Part shown: positions 19,616 to 55,425 of the stretch, one piece after another | Layout: the number at the start of each line of letters is the position of its first letter | Position numbering within the stretch: the first letter of the stretch is position 1 | Assembly: GCA_038244765.1 (NCBI GenBank) | Contig: JBBRTC010000001.1 | Span: forward strand, 629 to 64,628 | Direction: 5' to 3' | Origin: Candidatus Nanopelagicales bacterium | GTDB lineage: Bacteria > Actinomycetota > Actinomycetes > S36-B12 > JBBRLC01 | DNA: 64,000 nt | The notes under the pieces: generated by a model | Told to the model about the DNA's origin: nothing | The model's input: only the letters and a program-made list of their open reading frames with translations | Databases searched by the model: none | Made by a program: the position numbers and the translations under genes

Positions 19616-19665
19616 GAGTCACAGGGCAGTTGGCTAGTTGAGCGCGAGGCGGGCATGGGCCTCGG
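19478..19665. repeat. copy B of the diverged direct repeat (prfB-like fragment plus the true 3' end of the tadE-like gene)
   Basis: See copy A. The right end overlaps the last ~30 nt of CDS 19634-20146. Confidence 0.8.
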
Positions 19666-20146
19666 CGATGATATCGACACCGTCGGATGCCGTCAGGTCG
19701 GCAAGCACCGACATAAACGGCGGCTTGGACCGCGCCTTGAATACGACGACAACGGAATCGCCATCGCTTCGCACGGAGATGACTTGGAAATGCGAGAACA
19801 CGGTCGCCAGTCGGACATCCTTGACGTAACGCAGCACTCGGGTGCTGACCTGATTGCGATCGAGCGGCAGAACGTCGACACCATCGCTCGTGTGCGTCGT
19901 CTGGCCGCCGTACACCGCAGCGAGGTCGACGGCCTGGGCCGCAGCGAGAGCAGCAGCGTCAGCGGCGTCGTTGAGCGCGCGACGGCTTAGCCACAATGAC
20001 GACACGTCGGTGACGACAGCGATGAGAGCGACCGTGATCGCGACCATGCCAAGGGCGAGGAGCATGACTGTGCCGCTCTCCCCAGAACGGCGAGCTGCCG
20101 AGCCGCAAATCCGAGTGCGGACTTCATCGGCGAGCCGGGGCGTCAT
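19634..20146 (-). CDS. TadE-like pilus assembly protein (Rv3654c family)
   Basis: N-terminal GESGTVMLLALGMVAITVALIAVV hydrophobic segment followed by AADAAALAAAQ. ATGA overlap with the upstream gene. Confidence 0.7.
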   Translation of the reverse strand: MTPRLADEVRTRICGSAARRSGESGTVMLLALGMVAITVALIAVVTDVSSLWLSRRALNDAADAAALAAAQAVDLAAVYGGQTTHTSDGVDVLPLDRNQVSTRVLRYVKDVRLATVFSHFQVISVRSDGDSVVVVFKARSKPPFMSVLADLTASDGVDIIAEAHARLALN

Positions 20147-20592
20147 TGCGGCTCGCGGTAGGTGTCGACGACCTCCACGTGGTCCGCGCTCACCGGAATG
20201 GCGAGGTCGGTTCCTGCACTGAGGTTCTGTGGCAGGAACGGTAGCGGAACAGAAAGGCTCAGCGAGACCTCGACGCGCGATCCCGGTGTCAAGCACGGGC
20301 CACCAGCACATCGCAGGTGAAGGCCGCCAGCGGGAAGTTCGAGGCCGTGGTCGGCGAGCGCAATTTCCGCAGCGGAAAGTGCACGCTGTCGACCCTCCAC
20401 GTCAGATCCCGACGTCGCATATACACGGCCGGCTTCCCGGACTGCCGTCGTCACGGCGTACGCCGCGGACTGAACTCTCGCGACCGCCATCACCATGTAG
20501 ATCATCGGAACCAAGACAAGGAGCGCGAGCGCCACAAATTCGACGAGCGCCGAACCCTCATCATCTTGGTTGCTGCGACGGCGTGCATGCAT
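20143..20592 (-). CDS. TadE family pilus assembly protein / pseudopilin
   Basis: DDEGSALVEFVALALLVLVPMIYMVMAV is a TadE-type N-terminus. Confidence 0.7.
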   Translation of the reverse strand: MHARRRSNQDDEGSALVEFVALALLVLVPMIYMVMAVARVQSAAYAVTTAVREAGRVYATSGSDVEGRQRALSAAEIALADHGLELPAGGLHLRCAGGPCLTPGSRVEVSLSLSVPLPFLPQNLSAGTDLAIPVSADHVEVVDTYREPQ

Positions 20593-20996
20593 CAGCCCTC
20601 CTCCACGGCATGCCCGGTGACCTCAAGGGTTTCCGGGCCGAGGAGACCCAGCAACGGGAGTCGACCGCGAACTTCGATCGTCACAACGATCACACCACCG
20701 CGTGGCTCGCTGTGGGCGGTGACCGAATCCACTACCGAACCGGCGAGGTTGTTGGCGAGGACCTCCCTCGTTTTGGCCACGCCGTCTTGCGGACCTCGAT
20801 CTGCCGCCGCCGCGACCCTCGCACCTTCGGCCGCAGCTGCTATCAAGGTCGTCCGGATGTGGAACGTCAACGCAAGTTGTATGACCGCGAGCACCACCAA
20901 CAAGATCAGCGGTGCGACGAGGACAAACTCGACGGGCGCAGATCCGTTGTCGCTGCGGCGCAATCGCCTATCGGTTCGTGACTGAATCGAAGGCAC
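20592..20996 (-). CDS. TadE family pilus assembly protein / pseudopilin
   Basis: DNGSAPVEFVLVAPLILLVVLAVIQLAL is a TadE-type N-terminus. Confidence 0.7.
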   Translation of the reverse strand: MPSIQSRTDRRLRRSDNGSAPVEFVLVAPLILLVVLAVIQLALTFHIRTTLIAAAAEGARVAAAADRGPQDGVAKTREVLANNLAGSVVDSVTAHSEPRGGVIVVTIEVRGRLPLLGLLGPETLEVTGHAVEEG

Positions 20997-21207
20997 GGCG
21001 CAGAATCGAACTGAGTTGATCGTCGGCGATGACCCACAGCGCGGTCACTAGCCCGGCCGTCATGACGGTCACGAGGACCCAACCAGGGACGTCGCCCCGT
21101 TCGCGATCCGCCATGGTCGTAACCGTTTGCCAGCGGCGTACGAACGTCGTTGTGATGCGGTCGACCAAGCCTCGCCTTTCGCGCGACACTGAATATCGGT
21201 GCAACAT
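20968..21207 (-). CDS. small Flp/DUF4244-like putative pilin (atypical)
   Basis: Position matches Rv3656c between tadC and tadE. ERGDVPGWVLVTVMTAGLVTALWVI is the hydrophobic core. Start is uncertain; the ATG at 21207 has GGGGGAG upstream. Confidence 0.45.
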   Translation of the reverse strand: MLHRYSVSRERRGLVDRITTTFVRRWQTVTTMADRERGDVPGWVLVTVMTAGLVTALWVIADDQLSSILRRAFDSVTNR

Positions 21208-21250
21208 GTGCTCCCCCTTGATTTCGGCCACTACACCGGTGAAGTGACTC

Positions 21251-22195
21251 TTACGTCGAACCCAACGAAAGACCCCAAAACCCTGGAAATACAGCGATCA
21301 CGATGATCGTCGGCAAGATCAGAAATACCACAGGAATCAACATGGCGATCTCGCGCCGACCTGCACTGGCCAACAATTCTCGTACCCCATCAGCTCGGAC
21401 GTCGACTGCCTGCGCACGCAAAACCTCGGCCATCGGCGTTCCTCGTTCGACCGCCACGACCACGCCATCAACAAAGCGAGTGAGCGCGGGAAGTTCGATT
21501 CGCGTCGACATGGATCGCAGAGCGTCAACCAGGTTCACTCCCGTGCGAGTGAGCGCGACGCTGCTAGCAATTTCTTGGGCCAGGTCACCGTGACAGGTAC
21601 GCGCGATGCGCTCCAAAGCCGTGCCTGTCCCCTCGCCCGCGGCCACGGCGAAGGCAAGCAGTTCGGCGATCGTCGGTAACTCCACAGCCATGCGTCGATG
21701 TCGCCGCTTGATGTCAGCGGATAGCGACTGATCACGCCACAGGGCGGCGCCGATCGCGGTGCACAGCGACAAGATCAGCCACGGGGCGAATTGCACGCGA
21801 TACCCCGTCGCCACAGCGAGGAACGCGACGCCCATGGCAACGGCGAGGCCCGTCGCCGCTGCAATTACTTGCTCCACGCGGAAGTCTTCCGGCGATTGTC
21901 GGCGTCCTGCGCGGTCGAGTCGTCGGCGCAACGACTCGTTGCCACCGAGAAGGCCAGCGAGTTGACGGCCGGCGGCTTTGACTGATGGAGCAACGATGCG
22001 CTCGAGTGTCGGAAACGGCGTGCTCGCGGCGGTCCCATTGCGTCGATGACCGCTGAGATCGGACGCGCTTCCTAGGTACGGCGCAATCCGAGTGGGCAGG
22101 TCCGCGCGACGAAACAACAGGAGGTGGCGCGCGATAAGCAGGAGACCTGCGGCGGTTGCGGCCCCTAGGAGAGCACCGAGGGCGCCCGTGCTCAT
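21251..22195 (-). CDS. tadC: type II secretion system F family protein (TadC-like)
   Basis: Polytopic membrane protein. ATGA overlap with tadB. The long upstream extension of the ORF was rejected. Confidence 0.75.
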   Translation of the reverse strand: MSTGALGALLGAATAAGLLLIARHLLLFRRADLPTRIAPYLGSASDLSGHRRNGTAASTPFPTLERIVAPSVKAAGRQLAGLLGGNESLRRRLDRAGRRQSPEDFRVEQVIAAATGLAVAMGVAFLAVATGYRVQFAPWLILSLCTAIGAALWRDQSLSADIKRRHRRMAVELPTIAELLAFAVAAGEGTGTALERIARTCHGDLAQEIASSVALTRTGVNLVDALRSMSTRIELPALTRFVDGVVVAVERGTPMAEVLRAQAVDVRADGVRELLASAGRREIAMLIPVVFLILPTIIVIAVFPGFWGLSLGST

Positions 22196-23067
22196 GCGAG
22201 CACTCGTGGCTCTTGAGGTAGCCGCCCGATACGCAACATCAATCGATAGGCAACAAGGGTGACTCCGGCGCACACCAGCAACACGACGAATCCAGTGGGC
22301 GAGGAGTAGGCGCGAACGGCTTCGTGGCGAAGCGACAGCAGCACAAGGGTTACCCACGGGGCCGCAACGGCGAGGCGCGCGGCATTGACGGTCCAGCCTT
22401 GTCGAGTCTCCACTTCGGCACGGATGCGTGACTCTTCGCGAAGAAACGTCGACAACGTGCGCAGAAGTCGGCCGAGATCCGTCCCGCCGACTTGACGGGC
22501 GAGTCGCAACGCCTCGATGACGCGGTCGGCAACTGGATCAGCGAGGTCGGCCTTCAGTCGATCCAGTGAGTTCTCGAACCGCCCCGTAACTTGGTAGTCG
22601 GAGGCGAAGCGGGAAAACGCCGGGCGGAGCAGAAGCGGTCCGCGTGCAGCAAGTTCGGCAACACCCTCTGGCAGAGACATTCCCGCCCGTACGGCGGAGG
22701 CGAGATCGTCGATAACTTCTGGCCACGCCGCTCTCAAGTCGCGAGCCCGCTGATCGCGTTGACGCCGCAAGAGCGTGATGGGCGTCCATGCCGCCGCTGC
22801 GCCAAGGACAAGAGCAACCGCTGGCGACGCGCTGACGATGAGGGCGACCAAGGCACCCGAGAAACCCAGGCCAGCGCACGTACATCCCACTCGCAGGGGC
22901 GACAAGTCGGCGTGACCCGAGTCAGCCACCAACCTTGCCAACCGCCCGGGACGCTTGACGATCGCGAGCCCTGTTGCCGATCGCGACAGGGCTCGGGAGT
23001 CTTCGGTGAACGCGGACCCGATCAGAAGCGCACCGATCCCGACGACCAGCCCGAGAAGCACGCCCAT
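22192..23067 (-). CDS. tadB: type II secretion system F family protein (TadB-like)
   Basis: Polytopic membrane protein directly downstream of tadA. Confidence 0.75.
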   Translation of the reverse strand: MGVLLGLVVGIGALLIGSAFTEDSRALSRSATGLAIVKRPGRLARLVADSGHADLSPLRVGCTCAGLGFSGALVALIVSASPAVALVLGAAAAWTPITLLRRQRDQRARDLRAAWPEVIDDLASAVRAGMSLPEGVAELAARGPLLLRPAFSRFASDYQVTGRFENSLDRLKADLADPVADRVIEALRLARQVGGTDLGRLLRTLSTFLREESRIRAEVETRQGWTVNAARLAVAAPWVTLVLLSLRHEAVRAYSSPTGFVVLLVCAGVTLVAYRLMLRIGRLPQEPRVLA

Positions 23068-23069
23068 GG

Positions 23070-24362
23070 CTAGTTCGCCGTGCCCTCGAGTAGCGCAAGA
23101 AGGTCAATTCCGCAGGCGGCGAAGCGCTCTCGGTGAGGCGGAAATCCGTCCGCTCGACACAACTGCCCCTCGACCGTGCGAAAGACGTCTGCTGTCTCGA
23201 CCGCGCCAGATCCACCGTCTGACATTTCGGCCCGACCAGGAACCGCAACGATCTCACGCACGCGGCGACGCCCATCGTTGAGTGTCTCGGCATGAACGAC
23301 AAGGTCGATCGCAGTCGCCACCGTCGGTGTGACGAATTGTGAGGAAACGTTCGGACCAGCAAGCAGAGGCAGGGTGCACAACTTCGTGATCGCTTCGCGG
23401 GCCCCATTTGCGTGAATGCTGCACATTCCCGGCATCCCAGAATTGAGCGCAATCAACAGATCAAGGCTCTCCTGCTGGCGTACCTCGCCGACGATGAGCC
23501 GATTGGGTCGCATCCGTAGCGCTTCTTTGATCAACCTCCGAAGCGGAATCTCGCCCGTACCTTCGAGGCTGACCTGTCGGGTCTGCATCGCAACCCAGTC
23601 TGGGAGCTGGAGTTGAATCTCAAATACTTCCTCACAGGTGATGACACGTTCGGTGGGTGGTACGGCGTTGATCAAGCAATTGAGGAGGGTCGTCTTTCCG
23701 GCCTGCGTACCACCCGAGACGAGGATGTTGAGGCCCGCAATGACTGCGGCATCTAAGAATTGCGCCGAATGCAGGGAAAGAGTCCCCAGCGCGACCAAGT
23801 CGCTCAAGTTATGTGCCGGGGCGACGAACTTACGCACGTTCACCGCCCAGTGCTGGCGCGTTACGTCCGGGATCACCACATGAAGTCGAGATCCATCCGG
23901 GAGTACTGCATCGACAAACGGTTGGGACAAATCGACGCGACGGCCTGAGGTACTCAGCATTCGTTCGACCAGGTTTGCCACCTGTCCCGATCGGAGTACG
24001 ACATTGGTGAGTTCACTACGTCCGCGGCGCGCGACGAAGACGCGTCCAGGTTCGTTGATCCAGAGCTCCTCGACTTCCGGGTCGTCGAGAAAACGTTGAA
24101 GCGGTCCAAGCCCCCCCACGATGTCAACGACTTGCACGGTGATGCGGTCGAGTTCGTCCGCGATCCGGACCGGACCGCTCCAATTGCGGGCATAACCCGC
24201 CACGACGTCGGCGACGACTGAGGTGAGCTCAGCGGTGCTGGTCGGTCCGTGATCGGGACTATCGGCAAGCCGCGCACGGACTTCGTCCACAAGGGCGTCG
24301 ATGAAGTCCGCCTCTGGGTTCGAAGCGGGTCGCGCATCGGCGTACGCAAAAGCAGTGACCAT
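23070..24362 (-). CDS. tadA: TadA/CpaF-family secretion ATPase
   Basis: Walker A GGTQAGKTT, LIVGEVR, HANGAREA. VirB11/CpaF-like layout. Confidence 0.9.
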   Translation of the reverse strand: MVTAFAYADARPASNPEADFIDALVDEVRARLADSPDHGPTSTAELTSVVADVVAGYARNWSGPVRIADELDRITVQVVDIVGGLGPLQRFLDDPEVEELWINEPGRVFVARRGRSELTNVVLRSGQVANLVERMLSTSGRRVDLSQPFVDAVLPDGSRLHVVIPDVTRQHWAVNVRKFVAPAHNLSDLVALGTLSLHSAQFLDAAVIAGLNILVSGGTQAGKTTLLNCLINAVPPTERVITCEEVFEIQLQLPDWVAMQTRQVSLEGTGEIPLRRLIKEALRMRPNRLIVGEVRQQESLDLLIALNSGMPGMCSIHANGAREAITKLCTLPLLAGPNVSSQFVTPTVATAIDLVVHAETLNDGRRRVREIVAVPGRAEMSDGGSGAVETADVFRTVEGQLCRADGFPPHRERFAACGIDLLALLEGTAN

Positions 24363-24444
24363 GCGTCGTCCCCCCGTTTCCCTCGTGACGCGTCGAGAGA
24401 GAGCGAGACCGTAGGGGGCATTAGCCCATTCGGACTACCCCCAA

Positions 24445-24461
24445 TGTCCACATTGTGGACA
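24445..24461. promoter_or_regulatory. candidate operator TGTCCA-CATTG-TGGACA (core of the perfect 19-bp palindrome 24444-24462) upstream of tadA
   Basis: Read directly. The same half-sites and spacing recur at 40176-40192. Confidence 0.4.
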
Positions 24462-24490
24462 TCTCCCTGATAAGTCACCCTTCGGAGGAA

Positions 24491-35408: not shown

Positions 35409-35509
35409 CGTGCTCCCCTCCTCCACGCGCCGATCCAGAGACTGACATCTACCGTTGCCGTTTGCCATCTGCCCCCGGGAACAATCATGGTGACACGAAC
35501 GTCAGCAAA

Positions 35510-35523
35510 GTTGCGTACGCAAC
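35510..35523. promoter_or_regulatory. perfect 14-bp palindrome GTTGCGTACGCAAC in a divergent intergenic region
   Basis: Read directly. Lies between WS/DGAT (minus) and the cupredoxin-like lipoprotein gene (plus). Confidence 0.3.
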
Positions 35524-35583
35524 CCTTTGTAGTCTCTGCGGGAACTCCCGCACGGACCGCGCGGTACCCCTGGAGGATTCTCG

Positions 35584-36060
35584 ATGACGCTGCCCCGCCC
35601 AGACACCGACCGACGTGCGCTGCTCGGACTCGGCGCAGCCCTCGCGCTCAGTGTCCTCGCCCTGGGTGCCTGCTCGTCTGGAACAGCCGCCGCCCCGGGG
35701 GCCAGTACGCGCGGTGTTGCGACCAACTCCGGGTCCTCGACACCGGGCACCCCTGATGCGTCGACGAGCGGCTCGGGCAGTGCCTCTAGCGCGGTCAACA
35801 CCGTCGTCATCAATGTCGCCCAAGCTAACGACAACATCACGCCTGCCCCATCGAAGGTCCCCGTTCCGCTGGGTTCGCGCGTCCTGCTCACAGTCACGTC
35901 CGACGTCGCTGACCGAGTCCACCTCCACGGCTACGACATCGAGAAGCCGGTGGCGCGCGGCGGTAGCGTCACCTTTGATTTCATCGCTAACCAGGGCGGT
36001 CTCTTTCCGGTCGAAACGCACGGAACCGAAAAGTTGTTGCTTCAGCTTCAGGTGTCGTGA
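35584..36060 (+). CDS. Tat/lipobox-type secreted cupredoxin-like domain protein
   Basis: TDRRALLGLGAALALSVLALGAC (twin-Arg plus lipobox Cys). The C-terminal ~90 aa beta-rich domain contains VHLHGYD. Confidence 0.6.
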   Translation: MTLPRPDTDRRALLGLGAALALSVLALGACSSGTAAAPGASTRGVATNSGSSTPGTPDASTSGSGSASSAVNTVVINVAQANDNITPAPSKVPVPLGSRVLLTVTSDVADRVHLHGYDIEKPVARGGSVTFDFIANQGGLFPVETHGTEKLLLQLQVS

Positions 36061-37409
36061 CACCGACCCTGGTTGCTCACGGTGTCGGGGGTCGAAGTGA
36101 CCTTCCGGTCCCCTTCGCATTGGCTGTTACTGCCGCCGCGCTTGCCATTGTCGTGTCGTTTGTCGCGCTGGTGTTGTTGTGGCGCGAGCCACGAATCCAC
36201 GGCTCGCGTGCTGGCCGACCACTGCCAGCATGGCTTGCCGCCGGGCTGGACAGTCAAGTCTTCCGATGGATTCTGCGACTCTGCGGAATCGCGGGCACAA
36301 CTCTGATCGCTCTCGCCGCGTGGGGCGGACCTGATGATGCCCTCAACCCCACGGCTGGCACTGTCTACGTGCTGTTTTGGGTTGGCCTTCTCGTCGTCGC
36401 ATCGCTGATCTTTGGGCCGGTGTGGCGTCAACTCAACCCGCTCCGAACCTTGCACCTCATGATCTGTGGCGCCGTAGGTCGCGAGCCGTCGTCGTCACTA
36501 CTGAACGGTGCGTTGCGCTATCCACGCTGGTTGGGCTATTGGCCAGCCGCCGCGTGGCTGTTGGCTTTCGTATGGCTCGAATTGGTCGCACCGAATCGCG
36601 ATACGACCGCGACACTGCGGTGGTGGTTTACGACGTACGCCGTCGTGACGTTGATGGGCGCGTTCACGTGCGGTTCGGGGTGGTTTAACCGCGCTGATGG
36701 CTTCGAAGTCTATTCCACGATCGTGGGTCGACTGTCGATCCTTGGACGGCGCGATGACGGTGTGCTCGTCGTACGGAGTCCGCTCGCCGGACTGGATTCA
36801 TTTCCGGTGCGCGCCGGTATCGCCGCCGTGATCGTGGTGCTCATCGGCTCAACGGCGTACGACGGACTCACGAGTTGGGTGCCATTTGCTGCCTGGGTCC
36901 AGGAGAGCAATCTGTCTGCTCAGGCAAGTGGGACGTTGGGCCTTGGCATCGCAGTCCTTGTCGTCGCGGTTATTTACTGCGGTGCCTGCATACTCGCCGC
37001 GGTGTTGGGCCGGAGCAAGGAAGACATGTCAATTCGCCCGACCCGAATGCCGGCCGTGTTTGCCGCATCGATGATTCCGATCGCAGCTGGGTACGCCCTC
37101 GCGCACTACTACTCGCTGCTGATCATCGTCGGGCAACAGACGATTGGGTTGCTCTCCGACCCCTTAGGGACGGGGGCCAATTGGTTCCACACGGCTGAGC
37201 GGGGCGTGAACTATAGCCCAGTATCACCTACTCTCACAGCGACTTTGCAGGTTTTGTTCGTCGTTGTCGGACACGTCGTCGCGGTGTTCGCGGCTCACGA
37301 ACGGGCGGTGTCTATCTTCCCGCGGCGCACCGCGATCGTGGCGCAAATACCGCTGCTCGTCACCATGGTGGGGTTCACGATTGCGGCACTGCTCCTCTTG
37401 ATGTCCTAG
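36057..37409 (+). CDS. polytopic integral membrane protein, function unknown
   Basis: GTGA overlap with the upstream lipoprotein gene. Roughly 10-12 hydrophobic segments. Confidence 0.6.
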   Translation: MTPTLVAHGVGGRSDLPVPFALAVTAAALAIVVSFVALVLLWREPRIHGSRAGRPLPAWLAAGLDSQVFRWILRLCGIAGTTLIALAAWGGPDDALNPTAGTVYVLFWVGLLVVASLIFGPVWRQLNPLRTLHLMICGAVGREPSSSLLNGALRYPRWLGYWPAAAWLLAFVWLELVAPNRDTTATLRWWFTTYAVVTLMGAFTCGSGWFNRADGFEVYSTIVGRLSILGRRDDGVLVVRSPLAGLDSFPVRAGIAAVIVVLIGSTAYDGLTSWVPFAAWVQESNLSAQASGTLGLGIAVLVVAVIYCGACILAAVLGRSKEDMSIRPTRMPAVFAASMIPIAAGYALAHYYSLLIIVGQQTIGLLSDPLGTGANWFHTAERGVNYSPVSPTLTATLQVLFVVVGHVVAVFAAHERAVSIFPRRTAIVAQIPLLVTMVGFTIAALLLLMS

Positions 37410-38140: not shown

Positions 38141-38198
38141 CGAGTCGTCAGTTTTTGGTCACTTCGGAGCCGGTTGGTGACTACAAACTGACGACTCG
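38141..38198 (-). terminator. long hairpin at the end of ssd (14-bp perfect arms plus an inner 5-bp stem)
   Basis: cgagtcgtcagttt (38141-38154) pairs with aaactgacgactcg (38185-38198). The inner gtcac/gtgac also pair. The hairpin overlaps the ssd stop codon. Confidence 0.4.
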
Positions 38199-39419
38199 AC
38201 GAGTGGGGGTGAGGATGTCGGCGGCGAAGGATTGCAGGGCGAGACGCGCGGGCGATCGCGGCATCGCTTCTGCCACCGTACGACCGTCCCGTGCGGCGCG
38301 GTCGTAGGCCAATCTGTCATCGGGGATGCACACCACGTCGTTGATGCCCGCGTGGCGCGCGAGTGCGGCGCGAATCTGTCGCTCGGGCTGGGCGCCGATG
38401 GGGTCCGGGCGTACACGAGTCACTACTACCCGGATCTCGGTGTCAGGTACGACGTCTCGCAAATCCAACAAGCCGCGCACGAGCCGGGCGATTCCGATCG
38501 GCTCACCCCCACCCACTGCCACCACCACATCGGCGTTTTCCAGCGCCGTCAGCGTCGCGGCATTGCGTCGCGGCGCCAACGTGTCAAAGAGCACGTCCTC
38601 GTCGTGATCCAACGCGAATCCACAATCAACAATCACCGTCGAACTCAGTGAGCGTGCGGCCTCCCACAACCGGACCAGCCCCGACGGTCTCAATTCCATC
38701 CAACGATCAGGTCGCGGAAGACCGGTGAGAACGCGGGGACCGTTACGTACCTGCGCGCACAATTGCGCCAACCCCGCTGCATCCAGGGTTCCCGAGTCGG
38801 CTCGACGACACGCGGCCGCGATCCCTGGCGCGTCATCAACGATCCCGAGCGATTGGGCGATCGACGACGAATAGACATCGGCGTCGATCAGAAGTGAATC
38901 GATCCCAACGCGCGCGGCTTCGTCGGCGAGCGCGAGCGCCACCGACGTACGACCCGGAGACCCCACCGGGCCCCAGACAGCGACCAGCAAACCATCTGAT
39001 GTGCCGACATCGGCAACTGGTCGCATCACACCGACGCCAGCTGGCACTGCTTGAGATAGAGACTCGATCGTGGCGAACACGCCCGCGAGCGATTCTGCGA
39101 TGCCGACGACCTCGTCAACCCCGATTGCGCGCAACCGCTCGGCTTCGGGGTCGGCGTCGTCGTCGACGCAACCGACGACGGCCACGTCATGGCTATGCAG
39201 TTGTAGGACCACGTTCGCGTCGAGGCGAGACAATCCGCCAGACACAACGGCGACTCGTGCGACCCCCGCTGAGGCGACCGCGACGAGATCCGCCACGTCA
39301 AGACAACGGCGTACGACGAGAACTGACGACGCGGGATGCGTCAACGCTGCGATGAGCGCGGACTCCCACGGCGCCGATGCCAACGCCACCACGATGGGTG
39401 TCGGCGAACCGGGGGTCAC
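38181..39419 (-). CDS. ssd: CpaE/MinD-like ATPase-fold protein (septum site-determining protein Ssd, Rv3660c-like)
   Basis: N-terminal receiver-like region plus a ParA/MinD-like domain (VAVWGPVGSPGRTSVALALA deviant P-loop). Adjacent to the SAF-domain gene. Confidence 0.75.
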   Translation of the reverse strand: MTPGSPTPIVVALASAPWESALIAALTHPASSVLVVRRCLDVADLVAVASAGVARVAVVSGGLSRLDANVVLQLHSHDVAVVGCVDDDADPEAERLRAIGVDEVVGIAESLAGVFATIESLSQAVPAGVGVMRPVADVGTSDGLLVAVWGPVGSPGRTSVALALADEAARVGIDSLLIDADVYSSSIAQSLGIVDDAPGIAAACRRADSGTLDAAGLAQLCAQVRNGPRVLTGLPRPDRWMELRPSGLVRLWEAARSLSSTVIVDCGFALDHDEDVLFDTLAPRRNAATLTALENADVVVAVGGGEPIGIARLVRGLLDLRDVVPDTEIRVVVTRVRPDPIGAQPERQIRAALARHAGINDVVCIPDDRLAYDRAARDGRTVAEAMPRSPARLALQSFAADILTPTRRVVSL

Positions 39420-40102
39420 GACGACGTCGTGGGCAGTCGTACCAGGTCAATATCGCCGTGATGTAGCGCGGACACCAACCGCGCAACGTCGGCATTTGGT
39501 ACGTCGAGCACGACCGGCACCAGCGAGGCAACGCCCACGGATTCAATCGTGGGGATCTCGTCAACGACAGCGCCAGCGAGTACCAAGTGAGGTGCAGCAT
39601 TCCCCGCTAGCGAGGCCGCATCGTCTTTGGGAGTCACCCATACGTCGACGCGCTCACCATGACTCAAACCCGACGGCGCATGCGCAACATCGACAGAGAC
39701 GGTCACCAATCGACGATCGGTTGCTGCCTCCGTCGCCAGCGACGACGCGGAGACCAACTGTCCGCTCACGACGCGGTGCGACAACCGAGAGCCAACGGGT
39801 GAATGATCCGAATTGAGATAGTCACCGCCGTCAATGCGAACGGCGCTCACGACAACGTCATCGTCGGTCACTACCGTGCCCGCGCTGAGGTCGCGCGCAA
39901 AAGACCACACCTGGGTACGCGAGTCAGCTCCCGAGAGCAGTCGCGACCCGGCCACCATCGCGACCACGATCAACACGACGCCGACGAGAACGCGTCCATC
40001 GCGCCAACGCGGCGACCCCTGTCGGACGGCTTCGGGCGAAGGCGTTCCCGCCGAATTACCAGGCGCTGTCGACCCAGAACGTGTCAGAACAAATTGCGCC
40101 AC
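39416..40102 (-). CDS. SAF-domain protein (CpaB/RcpC-like Flp pilus assembly protein)
   Basis: TM segment VLVGVVLIVVAMVAG followed by VWSFARDLSAGTVVTDDDV (SAF). GTG 40102 is preceded by GGAGGA. The longer ORF would overlap the HTH gene. Confidence 0.7.
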   Translation of the reverse strand: MAQFVLTRSGSTAPGNSAGTPSPEAVRQGSPRWRDGRVLVGVVLIVVAMVAGSRLLSGADSRTQVWSFARDLSAGTVVTDDDVVVSAVRIDGGDYLNSDHSPVGSRLSHRVVSGQLVSASSLATEAATDRRLVTVSVDVAHAPSGLSHGERVDVWVTPKDDAASLAGNAAPHLVLAGAVVDEIPTIESVGVASLVPVVLDVPNADVARLVSALHHGDIDLVRLPTTSS

Positions 40103-40175
40103 AGGTCCTCCCCCGTTATTCGGACGTGACGGCCTGCCGAGGGTGCGGGACGAGACGAGGACGCGACCAGCGAAG

Positions 40176-40192
40176 TGTCCAAGGGGTGGACA
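40176..40192. promoter_or_regulatory. candidate operator TGTCCA-AGGGG-TGGACA in the SAF-ssd / HTH divergent region
   Basis: Read directly. Half-sites and 5-nt spacing are identical to 24445-24461. Confidence 0.4.
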
Positions 40193-40250
40193 CCCTTTCG
40201 AGTGGTTGCACCAAACTGCATCATCTGGGCGCAACTGCCATGATGCATAC

Positions 40251-40472
40251 GTGACTCCACGTTTCCTCACCCTCGCCGATGTCGCTGAGGTGCTCAACAC
40301 ATCGTCGGCCCAGGTGTACGCACTGGTGCGATCCGGCGAGCTGCGCGCTCTGAAAATGGGGGGCCGCGGTCAGTGGAGGGTGCAAAGCAGCGATCTCGAG
40401 GAGTACATCGCGACGGCGTACGCCGCGACCGAAAAGTTCCTCCAGAGCCATCCCTTCGGCAAATCCGACTGA
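40251..40472 (+). CDS. small excisionase-family/MerR-like helix-turn-helix DNA-binding protein (73 aa)
   Basis: FLTLADVAEVLNTSSAQVYALVRSGELRALKMGGRGQWRV is typical of the excisionase-type HTH. In-frame GTG at 40251. Confidence 0.75.
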   Translation: MTPRFLTLADVAEVLNTSSAQVYALVRSGELRALKMGGRGQWRVQSSDLEEYIATAYAATEKFLQSHPFGKSD

Positions 40473-40499: not shown

Positions 40500-41087
40500 C
40501 TAGCGTCGCTTGATCCAGCGAATCGCGTCATAGGAAATCGTGTGGATTTCAGCGACGCCCGTTGTGCGCCGAAAAATGTCGGCCGGATGGACGGCGACGT
40601 CCACGTGGTCGCGGCCCGCTCGATTCAAGGTACCCGTCACGTCGCCCAGTCCCGCGACGCCTAGCGTGACCGTGCGACGGTCACGAACCCAACGTCTCAC
40701 GACTGCCGAGATACCGTAGCGCTGACCCACGAAACTTTTGGTATCAGTACTTTCCGATGATTGGCCTAAATCTGTAACTGAGATTATCGACCTCAGGGGA
40801 AGCAACCATTCCGCGCCCGACTCCGTCTCAGATCCAACGAGCCATTCCGGACCCACATCGTTGATCAACAAACTCACGATGCGAAACCCGTTCGACGAAT
40901 CGAGGATGCGTAGCGATACAACTCGGTGACGCGCGGCAGTGAGTCGATCAATGAGAGAGATCTGCGCCCACTCGCGTCGAGTTCGATCGGCGATCTCATC
41001 GGCCAGATTCTCGTCCGCAATCGTCTGAGCCTGGGCCTCCAGATCTGCAAAGACCCCGTCCCATCGATCTGGCTCGGCGTTGACCAA
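40500..41087 (-). CDS. hypothetical protein
   Basis: ORF of coding character. The TTG at 41087 is preceded by GGGGGAG. No recognisable motifs. Confidence 0.5.
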   Translation of the reverse strand: MVNAEPDRWDGVFADLEAQAQTIADENLADEIADRTRREWAQISLIDRLTAARHRVVSLRILDSSNGFRIVSLLINDVGPEWLVGSETESGAEWLLPLRSIISVTDLGQSSESTDTKSFVGQRYGISAVVRRWVRDRRTVTLGVAGLGDVTGTLNRAGRDHVDVAVHPADIFRRTTGVAEIHTISYDAIRWIKRR

Positions 41088-41253
41088 CGACCCACTCCCC
41101 CCGTGAGGATCGCAACGTAGGTCAGGCCAGGAGAGCGTGACAACGCCTTCGGTCCAAAAGCACCTAGACGTGCCCCTTGACATAATCGCTAATCTCCGCA
41201 TACTTCATCAAACACAAGCAAACAGGCATTAAGGCATCACTCCAGGGGGAACG

Positions 41254-45687: not shown

Positions 45688-46281
45688 ATGGCTTCCATGA
45701 GCGTTGCCCAGAAGCCCGATCCCCTTGCGGTGCCCATCCGCGTCGACCTCGACGACGGAGTGGTGCGAATGCGCGCACCGGCTGCCGGCGATCGAGACGC
45801 GATCGTCATCGCTGCCAATGACCCTGACGTTGCGCGCTACACGATGGTTCCGTCGCCATACACCCTCTCCGACGCCGAAGAGTTCATCGCCGGACGTAGC
45901 GACGCGTGGGCCGAAGGGAACTTCACCTTCGCCATTGTGGACGCCGTGACAGATGAGTTTCTGGGCATGTGCGGGGTTCACAACAGCCAGCCAGGGGGTC
46001 TCGCGGGCGGCGCCGCTGAAGTCGGCTATTGGTTGGCGCCGGGCGCGCGTGGACGCGGCGTCATGACTCGCGCGCTCACGCTCCTGTGTCGGTGGTGCTT
46101 CGAGTCGATGCCTCTTGAACGGCTCACCTGGTACACCCTCGAGGGCAACACTGCCTCGCGTGCTGTAGCGGAGCGCGTCGGCTTCCAGATCGAGGGCTAC
46201 GTTCGCCTCGGCATAATTCACCGCGGCACGCGCGTTGACTGTTGGATGGGCGGACTGCTGCGCGCAGACATGGCATCGTGA
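45688..46281 (+). CDS. GNAT family N-acetyltransferase (RimJ/RimL-like)
   Basis: [19 protein letters not shown] acetyl-CoA-binding motif. Confidence 0.85.
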
Positions 46282-46960: not shown

Positions 46961-48265
46961 TCACGGCCTAGGAGGGGAGGTGCGGGCGATGTGTACGTCA
47001 GTGCAGCCCACCCACGTCGCAGCTTCGCGAAGTGCGGTCATCGTTGCAGCGACGGCTGACTCTGGAACGTGACCTCGCTGATTCACCTCGTACACCACGT
47101 GTTTGGCCACCAAAGTCGAGCCTTCGCGTTTCGGGTCAACGCGCGCAACCAGACGACCGCCGTGGAGCACCGGCATAGCGAAGTAGCCATGTTCGCGCTT
47201 TGCCGCGGGGGTGTACGCCTCAAGGCGGTGATCAAAACCGAAGACTCGCGCCGTACGACCGCGGTGCCAGACAAGTGAGTCGAACGGACTCAGCAAAGTC
47301 GTGCGAGATCGACCCGTCAATGTCGAATTGGCCCACTTCTCCAACAATTCGGGATCGGCGAACACCGGGCTGGCCCACTCATCGACATCGACGCCGACGA
47401 GCAACCCAGCGTCTGCGAGTTCGCGGATCGCGAACAAGACCTCGCTTCGTGACGCCGCATGAGTCGTCAACCGATGGACATCGACAATGTCGGCGACGGT
47501 TCCCACCCCGAGCGAGCGAATCGATCGGCGTACCAGTTCGCGAAGGCACTCGTGATCACTAGGACCGAGGACGCCGTCATCGTCAGTCCAGTTGTTGGCG
47601 CTGGGGGCGACTCGATGCTCGTCTGGTATCGCGCGCTCCGCCAGGTCGTACACGCGGCGGAAGCCAACTCGGCGTACACACACCACGTCACCGACATCGA
47701 GCAGCCATTCGATCGCGATTTTGTTCTCCGACCAGTCCCACCATTGGCTGCCGCGCTTCGCGCCACCTAATTCGCGAGTAGTGAGGGGACCAACGTCTCG
47801 AAGCCGCTGTCGAATCCCCTCAAGCGCTGCCGTTGGTACGTCATGCCAACGCACCCCGCGTCGGCGATAAGACCTGCGGCGAAAGGCAAACAGCGGCCAT
47901 TGATCGACGGGCAAGATGCACGCTGCATGGCTCCAATACTCAAATGTGCGCGCTGCTTCGGTGGTGTGAATATCGCCGGGACCTTTCGCACCGATTCCCC
48001 AATAGCACGCCTCGATTGCGTCCCTTCCGACCGCGCCTAGCCGAGCGTACGGAACCAATTCGTGATTGCGAGCAAGGACACTGATCGTGTCGATCTGGAC
48101 AGCACCCAGGTGCTCGAGGGTTTGGCCGACCGCGTCAACGCGTGTGCTGAGACGGGCCTGCGGTGACTGTGCCGGGGACAGCACGTACGGCCGACCCGCG
48201 AGACCTTGCGCGTGAAGCGCCAACAGCCGTACGTCAGCGCGCTTCAGCCTGGGGATTTCGCTCAC
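46961..48265 (-). CDS. winged-helix DNA-binding protein, YcaQ/AlkZ-like (DUF1006) putative interstrand-crosslink DNA glycosylase
   Basis: FEYWSHAACILP and the overall length and pattern fit the YcaQ family. Confidence 0.7.
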   Translation of the reverse strand: MSEIPRLKRADVRLLALHAQGLAGRPYVLSPAQSPQARLSTRVDAVGQTLEHLGAVQIDTISVLARNHELVPYARLGAVGRDAIEACYWGIGAKGPGDIHTTEAARTFEYWSHAACILPVDQWPLFAFRRRSYRRRGVRWHDVPTAALEGIRQRLRDVGPLTTRELGGAKRGSQWWDWSENKIAIEWLLDVGDVVCVRRVGFRRVYDLAERAIPDEHRVAPSANNWTDDDGVLGPSDHECLRELVRRSIRSLGVGTVADIVDVHRLTTHAASRSEVLFAIRELADAGLLVGVDVDEWASPVFADPELLEKWANSTLTGRSRTTLLSPFDSLVWHRGRTARVFGFDHRLEAYTPAAKREHGYFAMPVLHGGRLVARVDPKREGSTLVAKHVVYEVNQRGHVPESAVAATMTALREAATWVGCTDVHIARTSPPRP

Positions 48266-48277
48266 CGGTTGGCTTGG

Positions 48278-48946
48278 TTAGGCGATTTGAAGGACGCCTT
48301 CGCGTACGGCGCGGATGACCGCTTCCATCCGCGAGTGAACCCCCAGTTTTTCGTGGATGTTGCGGACATGGTTTTTCACGGTGTTCTCGCTGATGTAGAG
48401 GCGCTCAGCGATGCTGCGGTTGTTCAGCCCCTCCGCGACGAGGGAGAGGACTTCACGCTCACGGTGCGACAACGCGATGGCGCCGGCGGACTGGCGTTCA
48501 CGGCGGGCCGACAGAGAGACAAGTTCATCCAAGAGTTGGCTCACCAACGCCGGTGACAGCAAAGACTCGCCAGCTGACACGGCCTGGATCGCTTCACGCA
48601 ACTCGTCAACTGAACATGAGCGGGACAGGTAGCCGCGAGCACCCGCGCGTACGGCGTCAGCGAGACCGGCGTCCTCAGCTCCCTCGGCCAGCACCAGCAC
48701 GTGCGGAGCAGGGTCACAGTCTCGCAATGCACGACATGCCGCGGCCCCGCCTTGTGCAGGTAATTGCAGATCGACCAGAACAATGTCGATGGGATCGCCC
48801 GCAGTCGATTGGTGGAGAACGGCGGCACATGCTGAGGCAGAATCCCCTACTTCGCCGACGACGGTGACGGCGGAAACTCCGGAGAGCGCCTCGATCAGAC
48901 CGCGCCGAAAGATTGGCGCACGATCCGCCACGAGTACTCGAACCAT
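48278..48946 (-). CDS. LuxR/NarL-family response regulator (orphan, atypical receiver)
   Basis: Receiver (VLVADR...IVLVDLQLP) plus C-terminal LuxR HTH (LSHREREVLSLVAEGLNNRSIAERLYISENTVKNHV). ATG 48946. Confidence 0.85.
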   Translation of the reverse strand: MVRVLVADRAPIFRRGLIEALSGVSAVTVVGEVGDSASACAAVLHQSTAGDPIDIVLVDLQLPAQGGAAACRALRDCDPAPHVLVLAEGAEDAGLADAVRAGARGYLSRSCSVDELREAIQAVSAGESLLSPALVSQLLDELVSLSARRERQSAGAIALSHREREVLSLVAEGLNNRSIAERLYISENTVKNHVRNIHEKLGVHSRMEAVIRAVREGVLQIA

Positions 48947-49001
48947 GAAGCAAGCCTCCCGCGGCGCATCATGGCACGCGCACGCTCGGCGCGAACTCAC
49001 T

Positions 49002-49730
49002 TCAGCCGTTCTCGGCGAATTCCTCTGTCTCACCTTCGTCGTGCAAGCGAATGAGCCCGTAGTCGAAACCACGTCGGCAATACACCACGCTCGCGCGGCC
49101 ATCGTCACTGTCCATGAAGAGGAAGAAGTCGTGCCCGACGAGTTCCATCGCGTGGAGGGCCTGCTCAACGGTCATGGGTCCGGCGGCGTGGGTCTTTTCT
49201 CGTACGACGACAGGCCCAGCGGAGTAGACCACGTCATCCACGTCGTCTTGAGCGGGAGTCCCAGTAACAGTGCCATTCCGGGCACCAGCAGCAGCTGTCG
49301 AGCCCGACACTTTCGGCATGTCATCGACAACTGACAATCGCGCGCCCAAACCCTGCGCGGGGTCCAACTCCGGCGCGGCCGCGGTCACGGACGCCGTGGA
49401 CGCGCGCCCGTGCCGATGGAAGCGGCGACGTTCGCCCGCCCGCCGAAGCCTCTCCTCGAGCCGAGAGTAGGCGACGTCCAGCGCCGCGTACTTGTCGTTT
49501 GCTGATGCTTCTGCACGAATCACTGGACCTCGTCCACGGCAGGTGAGTTCGACTTCGTACGCGCGGTCAGATTGGCGTGGATTCACTTCTTTTGTTACTT
49601 CGACATCGATACGCATCAGTGGGACGCCGAAGCGATCCAAACGCGAAAGTTTTTCAGTGACGTGGTCGCGGAAGCGAGAGGAGACCTCAAGGTGGCGGCC
49701 ACGTACAACGATGTCGACGTTTTGGTTCAC
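49002..49730 (-). CDS. hpf: ribosome hibernation promoting factor, long form
   Basis: N-terminal S30AE/RaiA domain (VVRGRHLEVSSRFRDHVTEKL). C-terminal dimerisation domain (MTVEQALHAMELVGHDFFLF...VVYCRRGFDYGLI). Confidence 0.9.
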   Translation of the reverse strand: MNQNVDIVVRGRHLEVSSRFRDHVTEKLSRLDRFGVPLMRIDVEVTKEVNPRQSDRAYEVELTCRGRGPVIRAEASANDKYAALDVAYSRLEERLRRAGERRRFHRHGRASTASVTAAAPELDPAQGLGARLSVVDDMPKVSGSTAAAGARNGTVTGTPAQDDVDDVVYSAGPVVVREKTHAAGPMTVEQALHAMELVGHDFFLFMDSDDGRASVVYCRRGFDYGLIRLHDEGETEEFAENG

Positions 49731-50133
49731 GGCATCTCCCCTCGCATTACCTGGACAACGACGGTCACACCTGAAGTCGGCTCACACCGAAACTGACTAC
49801 CTCGGCGTTGGTAGACACCCACCCGGCCGACCTGGTCTTCGACCCCACATTCGCCTGCTGAGACGTTCGCAGCTTCCTTGCCACTACTGGCCTTCTCTCG
49901 ACACGACAGTCATCTGGACTGTTGCTGAGGCAGGACTTACTTCTAAGCCGCACCGTGATCGAACGACAAGAAGTCGCCTTACGTGGACCGTTTCGCCTGC
50001 GGCTGGCATCGGCTTGTCCGACCTGACTTTCCGCCCGCTCTTCGCGACGAAAAGTCCGGTGGACGCAACCACGGACCCGGGCGGGTGCCATGGACTCACG
50101 GTAGTCCCGAATTCTGGGAAATGCTCATCAATG

Positions 50134-50868: not shown

Positions 50869-51041
50869 GGCATCAGGATTGGGGTCCCGTCGATCGGTTC
50901 AGGCTCATCGCGACAGATCCGTGGACGGCAACCCGGCCCCGGGTGGTGTGGACAACAACGCGCCGACGGCGGCGTAGCCGGGCAGTTCCGCGCCGCTGTT
51001 TCCGAACTGGTGGCCGCGCCGGAACTAGTAGCAGCGCCCAA

Positions 51042-55187: not shown

Positions 55188-55425
55188 CGTGCCACCTAGT
55201 CGCGTCTTCTCGCGGAACATGAGGGCATTCATCGGCACTAGGCGTGCATTCATGGGGGCCATGGCTAGTTAACGCTCCATCGTGAACGCGAGTTCCGCAC
55301 TCCCCACCGGCGTTGAGGCATCCGGGTAGAGCCATCGCGGTGTCCGGCGCGAATCTCTGGCACGATGCCGGAAAACGACCGAGTCTCCTGGTTGCTCAGC
55401 GATCCAGACGTACGGACAGGGTGGC

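What the first reader, a model, noticed from the sequence alone, without database searches (positions are those of the whole stretch)
40175..40247. Operator-like palindromes next to a 73-aa HTH gene: candidate dedicated regulator of the Tad locus
The 148-nt divergent region between SAF-ssd (minus) and the excisionase-type HTH gene (plus) contains GTGTCCA-AGGGG-TGGACAC at 40175-40193. This is the same TGTCCA-N5-TGGACA as upstream of tadA. A second inverted repeat, TGCATCAT-N15-ATGATGCA (40217-40247), abuts the HTH start codon. The simplest model is that the small HTH protein autoregulates and co-regulates both Tad blocks. I know of no published evidence for such a circuit at this locus.
Basis: partly seen in the sequence, partly recalled or inferred. 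Interest (0 to 1): 0.6.

Follow-up and report, generated by a model that had tools for sequence, protein, structure and literature searches.

The report
Shared DnaA-box-like operator of Tad genes
The palindrome beside the small HTH gene is real and recurs in front of the unlinked pilus ATPase gene; it is the local form of a 10-bp box, identical in sequence to the binding site of the replication initiator DnaA, that precedes the Tad/competence-pilus genes and this HTH gene across Actinobacteria.

Summary
The first matters. The exact pattern TGTCCA-N5-TGGACA occurs only twice in 64 kb (0.01 expected). One copy lies between the SAF/CpaB-TadZ operon and the HTH gene, the other upstream of tadA.

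In an 80%-identical relative the same palindrome geometry is kept at both promoters, with different spacers. In about 150 other actinobacterial loci a single box, TT(G/A)TCCACAG, takes its place:
- upstream of the HTH gene in 73 of 81 loci, usually 38-42 nt from a conserved TG-extended -10 of a leaderless promoter;
- upstream of tadA in 40 of 57 loci (6% in control windows);
- often upstream of a LysM/DUF6459 operon and of the pilin genes.

So one shared cis-element and regulon are strongly supported.

The second repeat is not. Its right arm is the -10 element, its left arm is replaced in the relative, and such repeats are common in the window.

The binding protein is unresolved. The 73-aa BldC/Xis-like HTH is my first choice. 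Its Micrococcus luteus counterpart (same divergent SAF/CpaB-CpaE arrangement) is genetically tied to com-gene expression and could not be deleted. However, the box equals the actinobacterial DnaA box, so DnaA is a strong rival.

The parts
40175..40193 (.). Palindrome GTGTCCA-AGGGG-TGGACAC: two inverted box-like half-sites (GTGTCCAAG, 6/9 to TTGTCCACA; reverse complement GTGTCCACC, 7/9). Candidate operator shared by the divergent SAF-TadZ and HTH promoters.
   Evidence: Identical in L001. Arms conserved and spacer changed (CTTTG) in L166/L167.
24444..24462 (.). Palindrome ATGTCCACA-T-TGTGGACAT: two inverted 8/9 DnaA-box-like 9-mers upstream of tadA.
   Evidence: Conserved as TGTCCACGATGTGGAC in L081 within a 77%-identical region.
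40217..40247 (.). Second inverted repeat TGCATCAT-N15-ATGATGCA. Probably fortuitous: the right arm overlaps the -10.
   Evidence: One mismatch in L001, and its spacer is the most variable stretch. In L166/L167 the left arm is replaced by a canonical box, GATGTCCACAGGC.
40236..40244 (+). Extended -10 (TG-c-CATGAT) of the HTH promoter, 6 nt before the GTG start. This implies a leaderless mRNA with TSS near 40251 (inferred).
   Evidence: TGn-NANNNT lies 6-8 nt before the start codon in 75 of 81 loci, with T in 73/75 and G in 75/75.
40251..40472 (+). 73-aa HTH_17 (excisionase/MerR-like winged helix) protein with an added C-terminal helix (residues 46-66).
   Evidence: 70-75% identity to Nocardioides. 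AF2 model pLDDT 88.6. Closest folds are Pukovnik Xis and BldC.
39416..40102 (-). SAF/RcpC-CpaB-like gene (228 aa), first gene of the divergent operon.
   Evidence: Start supported by alignment to L166.
38181..39419 (-). ParA/CbiA-type ATPase (TadZ/CpaE/'Ssd'-like). A distant relative of the Mtb Ssd family.
   Evidence: TIGR03815 at 30 bits against a cut-off of 154.
40140..40145 (-). Candidate -10 (CACCCT on the minus strand) of the SAF-TadZ promoter, 29 nt from the palindrome. Inferred only.
   Evidence: The block GCCGAGGGTG is conserved between window and L166/L167. The spacing mirrors that at tadA (30 nt).
24408..24413 (-). Candidate -10 (TACGGT on the minus strand) of the tadA promoter. A -35-like TAGTCC lies at 24432-24437.
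   Evidence: Both blocks are conserved in L081. A TANNNT lies about 45 nt, or in some loci about 34 nt, downstream of the box in many tadA loci (read).
23070..24362 (-). tadA (T2SSE ATPase, 430 aa).
19634..23067 (-). tadB (22192-23067); tadC (21251-22357, start uncertain); a small hydrophobic pilin-like ORF (20968-21231); two TadE-like genes (20592-20996 and 20143-20592); a TadG-like gene (19634-20311).

Best explanation
The 19-bp palindrome is a protein-binding operator made of two inverted TGTCCAC half-sites whose centres lie 10-11 bp apart. It is the lineage-specific, doubled form of a 9-10 bp box, TT(G/A)TCCACAG. Across Actinomycetota that box precedes the small HTH gene, the divergent SAF/CpaB-TadZ operon, the unlinked tadABC-pilin operon and often a LysM/DUF6459 operon.

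In the window the palindrome is centred about 67 bp upstream of the leaderless HTH start. It is also about 51-52 bp upstream of the predicted starts of the SAF-TadZ and tadA transcripts. One factor can therefore control all three units.

I take the 73-aa BldC/Xis-like winged-helix protein to be that factor. Two copies would bind the palindrome and one would bind single boxes. It would regulate its own gene and hold the Tad/competence-pilus genes under control, probably by repression as M. luteus genetics suggests.

What is shown: the element, its conservation and its placement. What is inferred: the promoters, the sign of regulation and the identity of the binder. Because the box is the DnaA box in sequence, DnaA is expected to compete for it or to be the true binder.
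For: 1. Two exact copies against 0.01 expected.
2. A sister organism keeps TGTCCA-N5-TGGAC at both promoters, with different spacers (L166/L167 and L081).
3. A forward TCCACA lies upstream of the HTH gene in 73 of 81 loci from several orders. TCCACAG was found in 46 of 60 regions against 0.9 expected. The box sits 38-42 nt from the -10 in 57 of 69 loci.
4. The box lies upstream of tadA in 40 of 57 loci against 5.6% of control windows.
5. Most of the 68 perfect TT[GA]TCCACA 9-mers in 1.86 Mb of fetched loci lie upstream of units of this module.
6. The box stays with the HTH gene where SAF-TadZ is absent (L054, L057, L069).
7. The HTH gene is the only DNA-binding gene conserved in the module, and it is 70-75% identical across orders, matching an invariant motif.
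8. In M. luteus, mutations S27L, S46F and R64W in Mlut_14660 and SNPs in its upstream region raise comEA/EC promoter activity, and the gene could not be deleted (PMC8467076).
9. A 10-11 bp half-site spacing suits a dimeric winged-helix protein, and the model has an extra conserved helix that could pair two copies (inference).
Against: 1. The motif equals the DnaA box TTGTCCACA (PMC4285127). This extends to the trailing G found at E. coli sites bound by DnaA in vivo (PMC11317965). A chance match for an unrelated protein is very unlikely.
2. MerR-like winged helices such as BldC make few base contacts and read low-information sites (PMC5859096). A 10-bp high-information asymmetric box is unusual for a domain of about 50 aa.
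3. In most lineages the site is single and asymmetric, with no second half-site.
4. No DNA-binding data exist for this family.
5. The promoters and transcription start sites in the window are predictions. The E. coli-type promoter scan found nothing.
Confidence: 0.45

Rival explanations
1. The boxes are true DnaA boxes. The replication initiator DnaA, acting as a transcription factor, directly controls the HTH gene and the Tad/competence-pilus operons. The HTH protein is then a regulated member of the regulon and acts through other, unseen sites.
For: 1. Sequence identity with the M. tuberculosis and S. coelicolor high-affinity DnaA box TTGTCCACA.
2. The observed degeneracy, y-y-(G/A/C)-TCCACA, matches what I recall of the Streptomyces oriC consensus (from memory, not checked here).
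3. The trailing G is present in most in-vivo E. coli DnaA sites.
4. The M. tuberculosis rpmH-dnaA spacer carries a head-to-head pair, CTGTCCACAttTGTGGATAG. This is the window's tadA palindrome geometry plus 1 bp.
5. DnaA specificity is universal, which would explain a motif invariant across orders.
6. The information content fits DnaA domain IV better than a MerR-like wing.
Against: 1. In E. coli almost all in-vivo DnaA sites need two direct boxes 2-3 bp apart, and only 13 of 32 perfect single boxes are bound. Here the boxes are single, with no partner at that spacing.
2. The boxes precede every unit of one functional module that encodes its own conserved regulator-like protein. This is the usual signature of a pathway-specific factor.
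3. The fixed orientation (68 forward, 1 reverse) and spacing at the HTH promoter suggest a dedicated geometry.
4. In the window's spacer palindrome the arms are perfect, but positions 8-9 deviate from the DnaA-box consensus in both half-sites. From memory these are important DnaA contacts.
5. M. luteus genetics maps the com-gene phenotype to the HTH locus.
6. No link between DnaA and Tad genes turned up in the literature searches.
Confidence: 0.33
2. Another, unlinked transcription factor binds the box. One candidate is the GerE-type response regulator conserved a few kb away, beside secA.
For: A GerE-type regulator (48278-49168) is conserved in the neighbourhood. Nothing shown here proves who binds.
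Against: 1. Dimeric GerE and OmpR regulators need two half-sites, but most sites are single.
2. MtrA, encoded in the window, recognises direct GTnACc repeats, not this box (PMC6265350).
3. This rival does not explain the identity with the DnaA box.
Confidence: 0.08
3. The palindromes act as RNA hairpins: a 5'-UTR structure for the SAF-TadZ mRNA and a terminator or stabiliser after gdh.
For: Each folds into a 7-9 bp stem of -11 to -12 kcal/mol, with z-scores of -2.3 and -2.7. The tadA copy lies 29 nt after the gdh stop codon.
Against: 1. There is no U-tract and no terminator call, and no Rfam match.
2. In other taxa the sequence is conserved as a single box that cannot pair.
3. Changes between window and L166 are not compensatory.
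Confidence: 0.03
4. The second repeat (40217-40247) is a functional operator overlapping the HTH core promoter.
For: It is a perfect 8-nt-arm repeat spanning the -35 to -10 region. The sister lineage carries a real box at the same place, so this position can host a site.
Against: 1. The right arm is the conserved -10 itself.
2. The left arm is not conserved in L166/L167, and L001 has a mismatch.
3. Such repeats occur about once per 1.3 kb in the window.
4. Its sequence is unrelated to the box.
Confidence: 0.1

Closest known systems
Micrococcus luteus Mlut_14660 (HTH-17) / Mlut_14650-40-30 (SAF RcpC/CpaB, CpaE) locus; Torasso Kasem et al. 2021, PMC8467076
   Same: The arrangement matches: a small excisionase-family HTH gene divergent from a SAF/CpaB-CpaE operon, separate from the tadA clusters. 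That paper also notes synteny conserved across Actinobacteria. Point mutations in the HTH gene and in the spacer raise comEA/EC promoter activity, and the SAF gene is needed for transformation.
   Different: No operator, motif or DNA binding was described there. The authors propose transcriptional interference between overlapping divergent transcripts. The M. luteus HTH mRNA has a 5' UTR, whereas here and in most loci the gene looks leaderless. Orthology rests on synteny and family membership; I could not obtain the M. luteus sequence.
DnaA box and DnaA as transcription factor (TTGTCCACA in Mycobacterium and Streptomyces; autoregulated dnaA promoters)
   Same: The sequence is identical over 9-10 bp, including the trailing G of in-vivo E. 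coli sites. Head-to-head box pairs also occur in the M. tuberculosis dnaA upstream region.
   Different: The boxes sit at pilus and competence-related promoters, not at replication or nucleotide-metabolism genes. They are mostly single, without the 2-3 bp direct double-box arrangement. DnaA binding was not tested.
BldC of Streptomyces (68-aa MerR-like developmental regulator; PDB 6AMA, 6AMK; PMC5859096)
   Same: It is the best cellular structural match: rmsd 1.2-1.6 A over 51-53 residues at 23-25% identity. It is also a small actinobacterial regulator that is little more than a winged helix.
   Different: BldC is a monomer that binds AT-rich direct repeats, AATTxxxx(C), head-to-tail. The candidate site here is GC-rich, and either single or an inverted pair. 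This protein has an extra conserved 21-residue C-terminal helix. No sequence-level match to BldC was found.
Phage and ICE excisionases (Pukovnik Xis 4J2N, RdfS 8DGL; TIGR01764)
   Same: The fold and the Pfam/TIGRFAM domain match.
   Different: There is no integrase, att site or mobile element nearby. The gene sits in a chromosomal neighbourhood (gdh ... secA-mtrAB) that is conserved across orders.

Membership tests
HTH_17 / excisionase-family DNA-binding domain (PF12728, TIGR01764) | Profile match above the curated cut-off | tested here: met
   PF12728 scores 52.4 bits against 27; TIGR01764 scores 44.4 against 28.8.
Recombination directionality factor (true excisionase) | Association with an integrase or mobile element | tested here: not met
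   There is no integrase in the 64-kb window. The context is a conserved chromosomal synteny in more than 80 genomes.
BldC-like minimal MerR-type regulators | Winged-helix fold of MerR/Xis type without an effector domain | tested here: met
   AF2 model has pLDDT 88.6. Foldseek finds BldC at rmsd 1.2-1.6 A.
BldC-like minimal MerR-type regulators | Binds AT-rich direct repeats AATTxxxx(C) head-to-tail as a monomer | tested here: not met
   The conserved element is TT(G/A)TCCACAG, either single or inverted. No direct repeats at fixed spacing were found. Actual binding cannot be tested with these tools.
Classical MerR regulators | Long coiled-coil plus effector domain; operator inside a 19-20 bp -35/-10 spacer | tested here: not met
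   The protein is 73 aa with one 21-residue C-terminal helix. The palindrome lies 45 nt or more upstream of the -10.
DnaA box | 9-mer matching TTGTCCACA / TTATCCACA | tested here: met
   The window's tadA site has two 8/9 matches; the spacer site has 6/9 and 7/9. Orthologous sites are often perfect 9/9 with a trailing G. The consensus is from PMC4285127.
DnaA box | Paired direct boxes 2-3 bp apart (in-vivo rule in E. coli) | tested here: not met
   No enrichment of a second box at any fixed offset in 120 sites. The rule is from PMC11317965 and may not hold in Actinobacteria.
DnaA box | Bound by DnaA | not testable with these tools
   This needs EMSA or ChIP.
Tad/Flp (type IVc) pilus machinery | TadA ATPase, TadB/TadC platform, TadZ/CpaE ATPase, CpaB/RcpC SAF protein, TadE/TadG pseudopilins | tested here: met
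   Pfam finds T2SSE, two T2SSF, CbiA (below its Pfam gathering cut-off), SAF, RcpC (just below cut-off), two TadE (one just below cut-off) and Tad. A prepilin peptidase and an Flp pilin were not identified by profile.
Mtb-type 'helicase/secretion neighbourhood' Tad system (Ssd TIGR03815, TIGR03819) | Equivalog score above the cut-off | tested here: not met
   TIGR03815 scores 30 against 154; TIGR03819 scores 249.5 against 373. This is a different Tad-like subfamily, so the label 'ssd' is loose.
MtrA operator | Direct repeats of GTnACc | tested here: not met
   The motif is from PMC6265350. The sites here are single or inverted and read GTCCAC.
Intrinsic terminator / known RNA element | GC-rich stem plus U-tract, or an Rfam match | tested here: not met

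The most novel reading that the evidence does not exclude
Replication initiation and the DNA-uptake/Tad pilus are wired together through DnaA boxes in Actinobacteria. This could work in either of two ways. DnaA itself may switch the competence-pilus regulon. Alternatively, the small and possibly essential HTH protein may be a DnaA-box-binding mimic that also occupies oriC and dnaA-promoter boxes and competes with DnaA. The second version would resemble what Spo0A does at the B. subtilis origin (from memory). It would also explain why the M. luteus gene could not be deleted.
Probability: 0.3. Interest if true: 0.85.

Novelty: new variant of a known kind. Interest (0 to 1): 0.64.

Why it matters
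The papers read here state that competence regulation in Actinobacteria is unresolved, and none names a regulator of their Tad pili. The only genetic handle found, in M. luteus, points to this HTH/SAF locus but lacks a cis-element.

This work supplies that element: a precise, phylum-wide 10-bp box in front of the HTH, SAF-TadZ, tadABC, pilin and LysM/DUF6459 units. The circuit can now be tested with a few gel shifts and reporter mutants.

The box is also the DnaA box. Either outcome would be new biology. DnaA may control a pilus and DNA-uptake regulon, or a 73-aa protein may share DnaA's specificity. Both would link the chromosome replication state to horizontal gene transfer.

Tried and rejected
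1. Searching the 80 orthologous loci for the exact palindrome. It is absent from nearly all. This led to the single-box reading instead of refuting the site.
2. The trailing G as a feature separating the motif from DnaA boxes. It is rare in the few mycobacterial boxes read. I dropped the argument because E. coli in-vivo DnaA sites mostly carry it.
3. A second DnaA box at 2-3 bp direct spacing. None was found.
4. The MtrA motif. It is a different sequence.
5. Rfam, E. coli-type promoter and terminator scans. All were empty.
6. PDB sequence searches. Only noise-level hits.
7. Obtaining the M. luteus locus, to see whether SNP G1607081A (44 nt before the annotated start) falls in a box. A third homologue search seeded with a Micrococcales sequence returned no Micrococcus, and the paper and its supplement print no sequence.
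8. Literature searches on bare oligomers. These returned only PCR-primer noise.
9. TCCACAG hits 197-254 nt upstream of the HTH anchor and at window 41353. These are coding coincidences.
10. Testing comEA/comEC promoters for the box.

Full report
**Observation**

The window is a 62% G+C actinobacterial chromosome segment. Its closest public relative is a 'Ca. Nanopelagicales' MAG contig, L001. The sequence at 40175-40193 reads GTGTCCA-AGGGG-TGGACAC, and 40217-40247 reads TGCATCAT-N15-ATGATGCA.

The HTH gene is 40251-40472. It has a GTG start, encodes 73 aa and matches PF12728 and TIGR01764. The divergent gene is a 228-aa SAF/RcpC-CpaB protein starting at 40102, so the spacer is 148 nt. A ParA-type TadZ/CpaE-like ATPase follows it.

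tadA-tadB-tadC, a pilin-like ORF, two TadE genes and a TadG-like gene lie 16 kb away at 19634-24362, directly downstream of the large NAD-glutamate dehydrogenase gene.

The exact TGTCCA-N5-TGGACA occurs twice in 64 kb against 0.01 expected. The second copy, ATGTCCACA-T-TGTGGACAT at 24444-24462, lies 82 nt upstream of the tadA ATG. Palindromes of this shape are not over-represented in general: 7 occur against 6.9 expected. The shared arm sequence and promoter placement are the signal.

**Conservation in close relatives**

- L001 (HTH 97-99% identical) has the identical palindrome. That region is 97% identical overall, so this carries little weight.
- L166/L167 (HTH 81% identical) are informative. 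The arms are kept and the spacer is changed: GTGTCCA-CTTTG-TGGACGC.
- L081 (TadA 80% identical, from the same metagenome as L167) keeps TGTCCA-CGATG-TGGACC upstream of tadA. The surrounding region is only 77% identical, and the TAGTCCGA and TACGGT blocks are also conserved.

The shared consensus is TGTCCAC-N3-GTGGACA.

**Conservation at depth**

The exact palindrome is absent from almost all of the 80 genome loci fetched with the HTH protein. A single asymmetric box takes its place.

- *HTH gene.* TCCACA in the forward orientation lies within 200 nt upstream of the HTH gene in 73 of 81 loci. TCCACAG occurs in 46 of 60 upstream regions against 0.9 expected. The logo reads y-y-(G/A/C)-T-C-C-A-C-A-G-g-c. 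The loci cover Nocardioides, Nanopelagicales-like MAGs and Actinopolymorpha, and separately fetched Micrococcales loci also carry the box.
- *HTH promoter.* The gene is preceded by a conserved extended -10 (TGn-NANNNT) 6-8 nt before its start codon in 75 of 81 loci, which implies a leaderless mRNA. The box ends 38-42 nt upstream of that -10 in 57 of 69 loci.
- *tadA.* In 80 metagenomic tadA loci, tadABC is never preceded by SAF-TadZ. The box, often a perfect TTGTCCACAGG or TTATCCACAGG, lies within 200 nt upstream of tadA in 40 of 57 non-identical loci. Control windows give 5.6%.
- *Other units.* Further conserved positions are upstream of the LysM-like/DUF6459 operon beside the HTH gene and, in a few loci, between tadC and the pilin genes.
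- *Overall.* Most of the 68 perfect TT[GA]TCCACA 9-mers in the 1.86 Mb of fetched loci lie upstream of a unit of this module. The box remains with the HTH gene where SAF-TadZ is missing (L054, L057, L069).

The window's palindromes are therefore a doubled, inverted version of a widely conserved regulon box.

**The second repeat**

- Its right arm (40240-47) overlaps the conserved -10 (CATGAT, 40239-44; TG at 40236-7).
- In L001 the right arm has a mismatch, and the interval between the arms is the most variable stretch of the spacer.
- In L166/L167 the left-arm position is occupied by a canonical forward box, GATGTCCACAGGC, 9 nt from the -10.
- Perfect 8-nt-arm repeats occur 50 times in the window.

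I regard this repeat as fortuitous. The comparison does show that a box can sit over the HTH core promoter in a close relative, which would repress it.

**Predicted architecture in the window (inferred)**

- HTH transcription start near 40251, placing the palindrome centre at about -67.
- Candidate SAF -10 (CACCCT, 40140-45), 29 nt from the palindrome, placing its centre at about -51.
- tadA -10 (TACGGT, 24408-13), 30 nt from the palindrome, placing its centre at about -52.

The E. coli-type promoter scan finds nothing. That says little, because the scan requires close matches to the E. coli -35 and -10 consensus.

**The protein**

The family is very conserved. The Nocardioides homologues are 70-75% identical, and there are invariant residues throughout, including the C-terminal Y57, T60, H67 and P68.

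The AF2 model (pLDDT 88.6) shows a strand, two helices, a wing and a long helix at residues 46-66. The nearest solved folds are mycobacteriophage Pukovnik Xis and Streptomyces BldC, followed by RdfS, RacA and MerR N-domains. Sequence-level PDB searches are at noise level. Nothing in the neighbourhood suggests a mobile element.

**Who binds the box**

Two facts pull in opposite directions.

*First, the box is the DnaA box.* TTGTCCACA is the high-affinity DnaA box of M. tuberculosis and S. coelicolor (PMC4285127). E. coli sites bound by DnaA in vivo mostly read TTATCCACAg (PMC11317965). The M. tuberculosis rpmH-dnaA spacer contains the head-to-head pair CTGTCCACAttTGTGGATAG. A chance match for an unrelated protein is implausible. 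MerR-like wings such as BldC read low-information sites (PMC5859096).

*Second, the distribution is that of a pathway-specific regulon with its own regulator gene.* In M. luteus, almost all mutants with raised comEA/EC promoter activity map to a 550-bp region covering the counterpart HTH gene (Mlut_14660: S27L, S46F, R64W), its upstream region and the SAF gene. The HTH gene could not be deleted, and loss of the SAF gene cut transformability about 10^4-fold (PMC8467076). From the reported codon positions, Mlut_14660 numbering is about +9 relative to the window protein. That would place S27 at invariant S18, at the start of the second helix, and R64 in the C-terminal helix. This mapping is an inference.

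Against DnaA, E. coli DnaA needs paired direct boxes in vivo, and no partner box is present here. MtrA, whose gene lies in the window, has a different motif. RNA-hairpin and terminator readings fail because the sequence, not the pairing, is conserved.

**Verdict**

| Claim | Assessment |
|---|---|
| The cis-element and the regulon | Solid |
| The HTH protein is the binder | 0.45 |
| DnaA is the binder | 0.33 (the two are not exclusive) |
| The second repeat is an operator | Not supported |

The M. luteus paper shows that part of the circuit was already suspected. It describes no operator, and it is the only paper in the library that mentions the gene.

Noticed in passing
L166:3935-4000 and L167:1342-1407: The sister lineage has three boxes in the SAF/HTH spacer. 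The third, GATGTCCACAGGC, lies 9 nt upstream of the HTH -10, a position that should repress the promoter. The gene caller started the HTH ORF at the ATG inside this box (86 aa). The conserved -10 suggests the GTG used in the window is the true start.
   Followed up: partly
window 17170-17176: CTGTGGA (reverse complement ATTCCACAGG, a 6/9 box plus GG) lies 45 nt upstream of the GTG start of a PKD/malectin/phosphoesterase protein (17215-19452). It may be a further regulon member or a chance match.
   Followed up: no
window 11755-11761 and 45936-45942: Two further intergenic box-like sequences. GACATCCACAGTCG lies 66 nt before a 123-aa ORF with no Pfam match. GCGTCCACAAT (minus strand) lies about 158 nt upstream of secA.
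   Followed up: no
L012, L013, L022, L024, L026, L030, L036, L062, L066, L067, L075-L077, 750-1010 nt downstream of the HTH anchor codon: A conserved box lies directly upstream of a TTGACA-like -35, for example CCTGTGGACAAacgtTTGACA. It precedes the LysM-like/DUF6459 operon, which therefore looks like part of the regulon in many taxa. The window itself lacks this box; CTGTGGA at 41353 is coding.
   Followed up: partly
L124:7228, L140:7322, L143:7363, L147:6955: Perfect 9-mer boxes lie about 3.2-3.6 kb after the tadA start, downstream of tadC. This suggests a separate box-controlled promoter for the pilin and pseudopilin genes in some lineages.
   Followed up: no
L161:2393-2420 (M. tuberculosis rpmH-dnaA spacer): Head-to-head DnaA boxes CTGTCCACAttTGTGGATAG, plus a third inverted box 12 nt away. 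The geometry resembles the window's tadA palindrome.
   Followed up: partly
window 38181-39419 and 23070-24362: The TadZ-like and TadA proteins score far below the NCBIfam cut-offs for the M. tuberculosis-type Ssd and 'helicase/secretion neighbourhood' families. This Tad-like system is a different subfamily from Rv3654c-Rv3660c.
   Followed up: partly
window 35485-37409 and 40500-41201: Two ORFs of 450 and 233 aa with no Pfam match are conserved in synteny with the module across orders (the second is o233, next to the HTH gene); a 211-aa ORF beside them (35485-36120) gave no match in the fetched loci. Their functions are unknown.
   Followed up: no
window 46961-55262: An AlkZ-like glycosylase, a GerE-type response regulator, lpqB and mtrA place the locus in the conserved actinobacterial secA-mtrAB-lpqB neighbourhood. 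The GerE regulator is also conserved next to secA in Micrococcales loci L163 and L165.
   Followed up: partly
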